From a virus (taxonomy: Duplodnaviria; Heunggongvirae; Uroviricota; Caudoviricetes): a stretch of 14,562 nt of DNA. The DNA lies in the IMG/VR virus record IMGVR_UViG_2534681835_000020; one strand, 5' to 3'. Shown here piece after piece: positions 4,022 through 4,541 of this stretch (position 1 is its first letter; each line of letters opens with the position of its first letter). The notes under the pieces are model-generated. The model did not search any database. It was not told the origin of the DNA and saw nothing but the letters and a program-made list of their open reading frames with translations. The position numbers were made by a program, and so were the translations under genes.

Positions 4022-4203
4022 ACCAACCCCCTTTAGCGTTGTTTAGAATGGCAATCATCATATATCCAAGACATGGCATTTGGTACATAGCTTGGGTCGG
4101 GATTTCAAATCCGATCCCCGTTGATGGGGCCGTTACAGTACGCGCATATCCGCTTTATGTGAAACAGGAAGATTTTTCTGATATCACTGCCACAGCAAAA
4201 CAC

Positions 4204-4232
4204 CAATTTCGCGACCAGTACGCGCGCGAGGG
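4204..4232. repeat. Copy of a repeat family with core atttYgcgacMagtacgYgcgcg
   Basis: atttcgcgaccagtacgcgcgcgagg read directly. Partial copies at 4135-4149 (acagtacgcgcatat) and 4268-4282 (accagtacgcacacg). Confidence 0.6.
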
Positions 4233-4236
4233 GTAT

Positions 4237-4260
4237 CAGTTGCAAAATTTTTTGCAACTG
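4237..4260. promoter_or_regulatory. Palindrome CAGTTGCAAAA-TT-TTTTGCAACTG (11-bp arms), flanked on both sides by direct copies of the gaccagtacgc motif
   Basis: Read directly; it is not followed by a U-tract, so an operator-like site is more likely than a terminator. Confidence 0.4.
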
Positions 4261-4474
4261 CGTCCGACCAGTACGCACACGATGGCGGGGGATACCATGA
4301 AACTGTTCTCTACACGAGACAGAGTGGTGGTGATGTGTTGATTATCGGCGTATATGCGCACAGGACGCGCTATGACGATGTTTTATGCGGGTACACCAAT
4401 CACATGTATCTGGTGTGATAAATCGCGTTACATGACCTCTCTGTTGTGCTGGTGGTTATCACGACGTTCTGAAT

Positions 4475-4523
4475 CTGGCTTTTGTCTGATATTTTGCGAC
4501 AAGTACGTGCGCGTAGCATCGAC
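4475..4523. repeat. Longer copy (~45 bp) of the repeat family, with an imperfect palindromic core tacgtgcgcgta
   Basis: ctggcttttgtctgatattttgcgacaagtacgtgcgcgtagcatcgac is about 75-80% identical by eye to 5871-5920. Confidence 0.6.
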
Positions 4524-4541
4524 AGCATACACATTGGATAT

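What the first reader, a model, noticed from the sequence alone, without database searches (positions are those of the whole stretch)
4130..4525. Non-coding block with a repeat family built around a GTACGCGCGCG core
About 500 bp without a convincing ORF holds at least three related 30-45 bp elements (4204-4232, 4475-4523 and, 1.4 kb away, 5871-5920) plus partial copies at 4135 and 4268. Two copies flank a 24-bp palindrome (4237-4260). The 5871-5920 copy contains the perfect alternating palindrome TACGCGCGCGCGTA, which has Z-DNA potential and is unusual in enterobacterial DNA. This could be binding sites for an island regulator, or RNA elements acting in cis.
Basis: seen in the sequence. Interest (0 to 1): 0.6.

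Follow-up and report, generated by a model that had tools for sequence, protein, structure and literature searches.

The report
Helper-phage packaging-site copies on a satellite
The repeats are real, and each contains an 18-bp box almost identical to a stretch of the small-terminase gene of the P22-like phage known to mobilise this family of chromosomal islands, so they are most likely copies of that phage's DNA-packaging (pac) signal, which would explain how this terminase-less island family gets packaged.

Summary
The repeat family is real. There are four same-strand copies (4200-4232, 4265-4285, 4475-4523, 5871-5920) against 0.26 expected by chance. The window (1-7557) is an IS3-gutted remnant of an EcCIMP1-like phage-inducible chromosomal island (PICI) at tRNA-Thr. 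The published member of this family is mobilised by the P22-like phage Kapi1 by an unknown packaging mechanism.

The shared core of the repeats is an 18-bp box, TTTCGYGACMAGTACGCG. It matches 17/18, 16/18 and 17/18 to one place in the 39-kb Kapi1 genome, inside the Sf6-type small-terminase gene (terS). That is the gene in which P22-like phages keep their pac site. Box variants in different islands match different terS alleles, up to 18/18. Similarity stops at the box edges.

No RNA family, stable fold, promoter or terminator was found. The "non-coding block" is a decayed ORFan.

Best reading (confidence about 0.5): the boxes are captured or mimicked helper pac sites that let a terminase-less satellite be packaged. 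A cos site at 6016-6119 would serve a second helper type. The main rival is recombination linkers or scars, because crossovers between copies and homology breakpoints at copies are seen. Function is inferred, not shown.

The parts
4200..4232 (+). Repeat copy 1. The 18-bp box is at 4207-4224 (TTTCGCGACCAGTACGCG).
   Evidence: 0 mismatches to the terS-allele pattern TTTCGYGACMAGTACGCG. 17/18 to Kapi1/Sf6 terS. The same copy in the E. coli 042 and A28 islands is 18/18 to an E. coli prophage terS allele.
4237..4260 (.). 24-bp near-perfect palindrome between copies 1 and 2. It is part of a 53-bp insertion or duplication.
   Evidence: It is absent from L004, where copies 1 and 2 form one copy. Its A/T centre varies between islands.
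4265..4285 (+). Repeat copy 2, a half box (GACCAGTACGCACACG).
   Evidence: Only 11/18 to the terS box.
4475..4523 (+). Repeat copy 3. The box is at 4492-4509 (TTTTGCGACAAGTACGTG). It lies at the left edge of the variable cargo region.
   Evidence: 16/18 to terS in the window and 17/18 in EcCIMP1. Homology with most other islands ends at 4522.
5871..5920 (+). Repeat copy 4. The box is at 5891-5908 (TTTCGGGACAAGTACGCG) and TACGCGCGCGCGTA at 5903-5916. It starts 23 nt after the perC stop codon (box 43 nt after it).
   Evidence: 17/18 to terS. Similarity to terS extends to 44 nt, with 32 identical.
4048..4365 (+). Decayed ORFan 'orfX' that carries copies 1 and 2.
   Evidence: Intact at 105 aa in L004. 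Frameshifted in the window and in L048, L050 and L052. Homologues occur only in this island family. No Pfam or PHROG match.
6016..6119 (+). cos-like site, a second packaging signal downstream of copy 4.
   Evidence: 81-95% identical to the genome ends or cos regions of SfV, SfII, SfIV, ST64B and phiP27; the phiP27 record annotates a 'cos-site' there. The same segment is present at about 85% identity in more than 1200 E. coli records.
1..7557 (+). EcCIMP1-like PICI remnant: integrase, IS3, truncated P22-type ejection-protein gene, SieA-like gene, orfX, a 73-aa gene, an unannotated possibly RHH-type gene, perC, cos, a 61-aa gene, a pRiA4b-ORF3-family gene and a 119-aa gene.
   Evidence: Annotation of NZ_CP077465. 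The att core TCCTATTATC reported for EcCIMP1 is found in tRNA-Thr (L001 9921) and at window 7548 (PMC11773190). Complete relatives were seen in E. coli 042 and MP1.

Best explanation
The repeats are copies of the helper phage's packaging-recognition (pac) signal carried by a terminase-less phage satellite.

The island belongs to the EcCIMP1 family of PICIs. These carry P22-type ejection-protein genes and are mobilised by P22-like (Lederbergvirus) phages whose small terminase (TerS) is of the Sf6 type.

Proposed mechanism:
1. The helper is induced.
2. The island excises and replicates.
3. Helper TerS recognises the 18-bp box TTTCGYGACMAGTACGCG on island DNA as it does on its own terS gene.
4. 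TerS recruits TerL, and headful packaging starts from there, rightwards given the orientation of the boxes.

Several same-orientation boxes, with variants that match different terS alleles, would raise initiation frequency or widen the helper range. The adjacent SfV/phiP27-type cos site would allow a second, cos-type helper.

Shown: the sequence identity, its uniqueness in the helper genome, its position in terS, the conservation and orientation of the boxes, and the match between box variants and terS alleles.
Inferred: that the box is (part of) the Sf6-type pac site, and that it acts in cis for island packaging.
For: 1. Island family and helper. The window is an EcCIMP1-like PICI at tRNA-Thr. 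EcCIMP1 is induced and specifically transduced by phage Kapi1, has no terminase gene, and its packaging mechanism is stated to be unknown (PMC11773190).
2. Position of the match. Searching the repeat regions against the whole Kapi1 genome puts the top hit for copies 1 and 4 (tied for copy 1), and also a hit for copy 3, at one site, 18875-18892, inside terS on the same strand. The family consensus hits Kapi1 once against 0 in 100 shuffles.
3. Reverse test. The pattern taken from terS alleles hits the window only at the three full copies, all on the + strand, with 0 expected. There are no hits in P22, whose TerS is of another family.
4. Allele matching. Copy 1 of the 042 and A28 islands (TTTCGTGACCAGTACGCG) is 18/18 with an E. 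coli prophage terS allele. The GACAAG variants are 17/18 with Kapi1/Sf6. TerS proteins with FREQYA exist and correspond to copy 4' at the peptide level, although DNA identity there is only 13-14/18.
5. Confinement to the box. The profile comparison aligns only 10 residues, and flanks differ between copies. Neutral decay of a terS gene would not keep the same 18 bp three times.
6. Where pac sites lie. P22's 22-bp pac is inside gene 3 (record annotation; PMC9611059; PMC8022706). For Sf6, pac lies inside the DNA-binding-domain part of terS (my memory of the Leavitt et al. 2013 abstract).
7. Characterised island. EcCIMP1 itself carries three boxes.
8. Co-occurrence. Every island examined that has P22-type ejection-protein genes has the boxes.
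Against: - The nucleotide position of the Sf6-type pac site could not be checked, because the key paper is not held.
- The box lies at terS nt 166-183. That is the edge of the DNA-binding-domain coding part and codes for an almost invariant peptide, FRD(K/Q)YAKA. Its conservation in phages therefore needs no cis-acting role.
- A synonymous-site test was confounded by a mosaic breakpoint at the same place.
- The box sits at recombination junctions in both islands and terS genes, which supports the recombination rival.
- Copy 4' matches terS only 13-14/18, and its gapped alignment is not significant (p=0.36).
- Reported transduction of EcCIMP1 by Kapi1 is very low.
- No experiment links the boxes to packaging.
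Confidence: 0.5

Rival explanations
1. Recombination linkers or scars. The box is a short conserved sequence at which islands exchange modules with each other, and possibly with helper terS genes, through short-homology recombination (host RecA or phage RecT/Erf-type annealing). The copies are by-products or facilitators of cassette exchange, not packaging signals. This reading is compatible with a pac role.
For: - Natural crossovers between copies. Copies 1 and 2 are fused in L004. Copies 1 and 3 are fused in strain A28 with 285 bp lost.
- Homology between island variants ends right after copy 3 (window 4522).
- Homology ends exactly at the end of copy 4' where a doc toxin-antitoxin module is inserted (L005 36196).
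- Copy 4' has unrelated flanks on both sides in 042, L004 and A28.
- Variable cargo (Abi, ImmA/IrrE, Panacea, HTH) lies to the right of copy 3.
- In terS genes, divergence between allele groups stops at the box.
- Kapi1 encodes RecT.
Against: - Breakpoints are not always at the box. Several cargo types diverge 70-95 nt past copy 3, and the right-hand cargo boundary is at perC, with no box there.
- Same-orientation direct repeats invite deletion, so their retention in about 10% of E. coli genomes needs another benefit.
- This reading does not explain why the linker should be identical to a segment of the helper's terS gene in particular.
Confidence: 0.25
2. Inert debris of terS genes. An ancestor of these islands carried its own Sf6-type terS, as many satellites do, and the copies are what remains after decay and duplication, with no present function.
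For: - The box reads F-R-D-(Q/K)-Y-A in the orfX frame, the same peptide as TerS residues 56-61.
- orfX is visibly decaying.
- 7 of 12 differences between copies fall on third codon positions, counted by hand; this is suggestive only.
Against: - Only about 18-30 nt resemble terS. BLASTP and profile searches find nothing beyond 10 residues.
- Three separate copies keep the same 18 bp at 16-18/18 while everything around them is unrelated.
- The upstream similarity of copies 3 and 4 to terS is out of frame.
- Box variants match living terS alleles.
Confidence: 0.1
3. Operators for an island regulator, or cis-acting RNA elements.
For: The copies are repeated, oriented, sit outside annotated genes and lie near regulator genes.
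Against: - No Rfam match.
- No shared or unusually stable fold among the copies.
- No promoter or terminator consensus.
- Neighbouring regulators vary between islands while the boxes do not.
- The regulator-perC intergenic region has its own iterons.
- Copy 1 lies inside a decayed ORF.
Confidence: 0.08
4. Chance similarity, or a purely structural (CG)n / Z-DNA element.
For: Alternating CG runs of 8-12 bp follow the box. Variation within them is mostly CG to TG/CA transitions.
Against: Shuffle controls rule out chance. The conserved part shared with terS lies 5' of the CG run, and the run itself varies between copies.
Confidence: 0.03

Closest known systems
Phage P22 pac site (22 bp inside gene 3, the terS gene)
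   Same: A short asymmetric sequence lying inside the small-terminase gene of a P22-like phage that directs the start of headful packaging.
   Different: The sequence and the TerS family are different (PF16677 against PF20901). The box does not occur in P22. Here the sequence is outside any terS gene, on a satellite, and in several copies. A separate 15/22 resemblance to P22 pac at window 4168-4189 is not significant.
Sf6-type TerS and its pac site (Sf6 gene 1; Kapi1_046)
   Same: The box is identical to Sf6 and Kapi1 terS nt 166-183 (Sf6 numbering). From memory of Leavitt et al. 2013, the Sf6 pac site lies within the DNA-binding-domain part of terS.
   Different: The exact Sf6 pac nucleotides are not known to me and could not be read here. 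The box sits at the 3' edge of that part of the gene.
EcCIMP1 (Pick, Stadel & Raivio 2025, PMC11773190)
   Same: Same island family, same tRNA-Thr site and same att core. EcCIMP1 carries the same three boxes.
   Different: The window copy is gutted by IS3. The paper left the packaging mechanism open and does not mention direct repeats other than the att core, or a pac or cos site on the island, in the passages a term search returned (only 12 of 23 matching places were shown).
Satellites that carry a helper's cos site (SaPIbov5; EcCICFT073-type PICIs with Rpp)
   Same: A terminase-less satellite borrows the helper's packaging signal. The window also has such a cos site at 6016-6119.
   Different: Those cases use a single cos site. 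Here the proposed signal is a pac box for a headful phage, in multiple copies.
SPP1 pacL/pacR boxes and lambda cosB R sites
   Same: Several short repeated boxes serve as small-terminase recognition elements (PMC9611059; lambda from established knowledge).
   Different: Those boxes are clustered within about 200 bp of the cut site. Here they are spread over 1.7 kb.
Module-boundary ('linker') sequences in mosaic lambdoid phages
   Same: Short conserved sequences at junctions between exchangeable modules, as seen at copies 3 and 4'.
   Different: Classical linkers are not copies of a packaging-gene segment.

Membership tests
pac site of an Sf6-type (P22-like) headful phage | Sequence matches the helper's own recognition site | tested here: inconclusive
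   16-18/18 identity to a unique site in the helper terS gene. The mapped Sf6 pac nucleotides could not be consulted.
pac site of an Sf6-type (P22-like) headful phage | In the phage, the site lies inside the terS gene (in its DNA-binding-domain part) | tested here: met
   The box is at Kapi1 18875-18892, inside terS 18704-19132, which is Sf6 gene 1 nt 166-183 and residues 56-61. It is at the edge of the domain.
pac site of an Sf6-type (P22-like) headful phage | Required in cis for packaging or transduction, with packaging series starting nearby | not testable with these tools
   Needs genetics or virion DNA sequencing.
EcCIMP1-like PICI | Integrase at tRNA-Thr with att core TCCTATTATC | tested here: met
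   PMC11773190.
EcCIMP1-like PICI | AlpA regulator, primase and P22-type DNA-transfer genes | tested here: not met
   In the window, IS3 (1770-2983) replaces everything between the integrase and the 3' end of the gp16-like gene. These genes are present in intact relatives. The window copy is therefore a remnant.
EcCIMP1-like PICI | Right-end module: orfX region, perC, 61-aa gene, pRiA4b-ORF3-family gene | tested here: met
   95-100% identity to many islands. The gene order is the same in MP1.
Known RNA families (Rfam 15) | Covariance-model match | tested here: not met
   No hit in 4022-6015 at E<=1.
cos site of SfV/phiP27-type phages (for 6016-6119, not the repeats) | Sequence homology to phage cohesive-end regions | tested here: met
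   Cleavage was not tested.
Z-DNA-forming alternating CG tract | Uninterrupted alternating purine-pyrimidine run | tested here: met
   TACGCGCGCGCGTA at 5903-5916. Whether it forms Z-DNA in vivo is not testable here, and the run is shorter and variable in the other copies.

The most novel reading that the evidence does not exclude
The 18-bp box is the actual recognition sequence of Sf6-type small terminases, which has so far been mapped only roughly. On this reading, EcCIMP1-like satellites carry three or four copies matched to different terS alleles, plus an unrelated SfV-type cos site. That would make them dual-mode (pac and cos) hijackers of two helper families, with the same boxes also serving as junctions where defence cargo is swapped.
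Probability: 0.3. Interest if true: 0.75.

Novelty: new variant of a known kind. Interest (0 to 1): 0.6.

Why it matters
How EcCIMP1-like islands get into Kapi1 capsids is an explicitly open question: they have no terminase and no recognised packaging module (PMC11773190). These islands are present in about one in ten complete E. coli genomes and carry Abi, toxin-antitoxin and PerC-type cargo.

A defined 18-bp candidate site makes the question directly testable by deleting or transplanting the box. It would also pin down a pac sequence for the widespread Sf6-type terminases, for which specific TerS-DNA binding has been hard to demonstrate.

It further suggests that one satellite can carry signals for both headful and cos helpers.

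Tried and rejected
- Rfam scan of the whole window: only the IS3 ALIL pseudoknot, nothing at the repeats.
- RNA folds of every copy on both strands: ordinary energies and no common structure.
- Promoter and terminator scan: none.
- tRNA scan: none.
- Pattern scan of 185,579 species genomes: only chance hits in high-GC taxa, none enterobacterial.
- BLAST of the block and of single copies against 50,697 phage records: nothing at that sensitivity. Matches of 18 bp fall below BLAST thresholds in large databases, which is why the terS match appeared only in a targeted search of the helper genome.
- orfX as a real protein family: only close, often broken relatives in E. coli and Salmonella, with no Pfam or PHROG match. 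One apparent DUF4222 link is a deletion chimera.
- att-site idea: the island att cores are different sequences.
- CRISPR-repeat-like idea: rejected on inspection.
- P22 pac resemblance at 4168-4189: not above shuffles, and orfX against gp3 gives no BLASTP alignment.
- tblastn of the orfX motif peptide against phages: no terS hit.
- Synonymous-site conservation test for a cis element in terS: confounded by a mosaic breakpoint.
- Attempts to read Leavitt et al. 2013 and Zhao et al. 2012: not held.
- One wasted call on a mis-framed translation.

Full report
**What is in the sequence.** The repeat family exists as described. The 16-mer GACMAGTACGYGCGCG, allowing up to three mismatches, occurs four times in the 14.5-kb window, at 4213, 4266, 4498 and 5897. 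All four are on the + strand, against 0.26 expected, and no shuffle in 200 reaches four. An independent repeat search finds the same copies and shows that 4485-4513 and 5884-5912 are 86% identical over 29 nt. The 24-bp palindrome is at 4237-4260 and TACGCGCGCGCGTA at 5903-5916, as stated. The claimed partial copy at 4135 is not better than chance: 9 hits to the 10-mer against 8.6 expected.

**Context.** The window is 100% identical to E. coli O111:H8 strain 8E. It starts just after tRNA-Thr. Its genes run in this order:
- an integrase;
- an IS3 element;
- the 3' end of a P22-type gp16 ejection-protein gene;
- a SieA-like membrane protein gene;
- the block in question;
- a set of TGAACCAAC iterons;
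- perC;
- copy 4;
- a 61-aa gene, a pRiA4b-ORF3-family gene and a 119-aa gene.

Complete relatives in E. coli 042 and MP1 are about 20-kb islands. They carry an integrase, an AlpA-type regulator, an antirepressor, a TOPRIM/DUF927 primase and P22-type ejection-protein genes, followed by the same right-hand end.

The MP1 island is EcCIMP1, a PICI shown experimentally to be induced and specifically transduced by the P22-like phage vB_EcoP_Kapi1. The authors note that it lacks terminase and capsid genes and that its packaging mechanism is unknown (PMC11773190). Their att core, TCCTATTATC, is present in the tRNA-Thr gene and at window 7548. The window therefore holds an EcCIMP1-like island (1-7557) that IS3 has gutted.

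**The 'non-coding' block.** In one relative (L004) the block is an intact 105-codon ORF. In the window a 53-bp insertion interrupts it. The insertion consists of copy 1's tail, the palindrome and copy 2, and it shifts the frame. Other islands carry further frameshifts. A word-indexed search of 5.8 billion proteins and a full HMMER scan of 1.84 billion representatives both find only close relatives, many of them truncated, in E. coli and Salmonella. No Pfam or PHROG family matches. It is a decaying ORFan.

**Conservation and behaviour of the copies.** Every related island examined keeps the copies at the same positions and on the same strand. The motif occurs in 569 of 5426 complete E. coli genomes, with a median of three places, and always in unannotated DNA of this island family in the rows listed.

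The copies recombine:
- L004 has copies 1 and 2 fused.
- Strain A28 has copies 1 and 3 fused, with 285 bp lost.

Homology between island variants ends just after copy 3 in the window type (4522). Between 042 and A28 it ends exactly at the end of a fourth-position copy (4'), where a doc toxin-antitoxin module is inserted. To the right of copy 3 lies a variable cargo region holding Abi, ImmA/IrrE, Panacea-domain, HTH or small genes.

**What they are not.**
- No Rfam family matches.
- Folds of the copies are ordinary and share no structure. The only low z-score, -2.8, belongs to the minus-strand fold of 4195-4290, where the palindrome is flanked by G-U pairing between copies 1 and 2.
- No sigma-70 promoter or intrinsic terminator consensus is present.
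- The motif is absent from species-representative genomes of other enterobacteria.
- At BLAST sensitivity it is absent from deposited phages.

**The link to the helper phage.** I fetched the Kapi1 genome and searched the repeat regions against it with short-word BLAST.
- The top hit for copies 1 and 4 (tied for copy 1) is Kapi1 18875-18892, TTTCGCGACAAGTACGCG. Copy 3 also hits that site. The site is on the coding strand of the small-terminase gene (18704-19132).
- The family consensus hits Kapi1 once, there, against none in 100 shuffles.
- Conversely, a pattern written from terS alleles alone (TTTCGYGACMAGTACGCG) hits the window only at 4207-4224, 4492-4509 and 5891-5908, with 0, 2 and 1 mismatches. 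All three are on the + strand and none is expected by chance.
- P22, whose TerS belongs to another family, has no hit.
- Kapi1 TerS is nearly identical to Sf6 gp1, and the box is Sf6 gene 1 nt 166-183, coding for F56-A61.

Variants of the box in different islands match different living terS alleles:
- TTTCGTGACCAGTACGCG in the 042 and A28 islands is 18/18 with an E. coli prophage allele.
- The GACAAG forms are 17/18 with Kapi1/Sf6.
- TTT(T/C)GAGACAAGTACGCG is 17/18 with a third allele.
- The TerS family shows FRDKYA, FRDQYA and FREQYA forms, the same three peptides read from the island copies.

Similarity does not extend beyond the box. A profile-profile comparison aligns ten residues only, and the longer DNA similarity of copy 4 (32 of 44 nt) is out of frame. 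EcCIMP1 itself has three boxes.

**Interpretation.** P22-like phages keep their pac site inside terS. This is annotated in the P22 record and stated in two papers read here. For Sf6, I recall from the abstract of Leavitt et al. 2013 that the site lies in the part of terS coding for the DNA-binding domain; I could not read that paper.

The facts to explain are these:
- The island is a terminase-less satellite that is nevertheless specifically packaged by an Sf6-type-TerS phage.
- It carries several same-orientation copies of an 18-bp piece of that phage's terS.
- Everything around the copies is unrelated.

The simplest explanation is that the boxes are pac signals, captured or mimicked. I give this about 0.5. 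The step from 'identical to a piece of terS' to 'is the pac site' is inference.

**Caveats and rivals.**
- The box codes for a nearly invariant peptide, so its conservation in phages does not by itself indicate a cis-acting role.
- It lies at the boundary where two terS allele groups switch from diverged to near-identical DNA. That confounded my synonymous-site test.
- Together with the junctions seen in the islands, this supports a rival in which the box is a recombination linker or scar (0.25). The two readings are not exclusive.
- Inert terS debris (0.1) fits the shared reading frame. It does not fit three copies keeping the same 18 bp while their flanks are unrelated.
- Regulator operators or RNA elements (0.08) have no positive evidence.

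**Second packaging signal.** About 100 bp downstream of copy 4, window 6016-6119 is homologous to the cos regions or genome ends of SfV, SfII, SfIV, ST64B and phiP27. It also occurs in other PICI backbones that have no boxes. The island may therefore be packageable by two kinds of helper.

**Verdict.** I classify the feature as a new variant of a known kind, a satellite carrying its helper's packaging signal, here a multi-copy pac box rather than a cos site. Interest is 0.6, because it turns a question left open in 2025 into a simple deletion and transplantation experiment.

Noticed in passing
window 6016-6119: cos-like site, 81-95% identical to the cos regions or genome ends of SfV, SfII, SfIV, ST64B and phiP27. 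It is conserved at about 85% identity in more than 1200 E. coli records, and it occurs in other PICI backbones that lack the repeats (L054).
   Followed up: partly
window 5935-5952 and 5998-6015: Two 18-nt direct repeats (AATAGCGGCGACCTGAAT and AATAGCAGTAACCTGAAT), 63 bp apart, between copy 4 and the cos-like site. They could be terminase-binding (cosB-like) sites. They are island-specific, because phage homology starts only at about 6016.
   Followed up: no
Several GTTGGTTCA units are followed, across an AT-rich spacer, by four tandem TGAACCAAC units at 9-bp spacing. It is probably the operator of the divergent regulator pair, or an origin.
   Followed up: no
window 1770-2983 (ALIL pseudoknot at 2049-2165): IS3-family element with its frameshift pseudoknot. 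It replaces the whole alpA-primase-ejection-gene part of the PICI, so this copy of the island should be immobile.
   Followed up: partly
window 4168-4189: GAAGATTTTTCTGATATCACTG matches the annotated P22 pac site at 15 of 22 positions (13 of the first 14), 18 nt upstream of box 1. It is not significant against shuffles.
   Followed up: yes
window 4448-4455: A Chi site (GCTGGTGG) about 40 nt upstream of copy 3. It is conserved in most relatives but mutated in two (L050, L052).
   Followed up: partly
window 4237-4260 and homologous positions in L047, L048, L050, L052: The A/T centre of the palindrome differs between islands (A4T6, A6T4, A5T4, AAAACTTTTT). This changes the orfX reading frame, and in-frame versions of 122-123 aa exist (P0003, P0004).
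   Followed up: partly
window 4111-4135; L048 homologous position: Small hairpin CCCC-GTTGAT-GGGG inside orfX. L048 has changes on both arms (GCCCCC...GGGGGGC) that lengthen the stem.
   Followed up: no
window 5846-5917: Copy 4 is in frame with perC behind its TAG stop codon (…KRQR*TTRGKSSSGWRFLVFRDKYARA*). A 7-bp hairpin (CCAGAGG/CCTCTGG) sits between the stop codon and the copy.
   Followed up: no
Sf6-type terS genes, L058-L137 (Sf6 gene 1 nt 60-190): Two allele groups differ at most synonymous sites in nt 60-170 but are almost identical from nt 172 onward. The mosaic breakpoint coincides with the 18-bp box.
   Followed up: partly
window 4523-5566 and homologous slots in L004, L005, L047-L050: Hotspot of variable cargo between copy 3 and perC: an Abi-family gene, ImmA/IrrE with a partner gene, AlpA_1/HTH, or the 73-aa gene. 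A second slot near the island's right end holds either a Panacea-domain pair (between the 61-aa gene and the pRiA4b-ORF3-family gene, L049) or a doc toxin-antitoxin module (after copy 4', 042).
   Followed up: partly
window 7890-9597: An HNH endonuclease gene and a DNA cytosine methyltransferase gene lie just outside the PICI's right att site, ahead of a CP4-6-like remnant (CbtA/YeeU pseudogenes, JAB-domain (RadC-like) gene, antirestriction gene).
   Followed up: no
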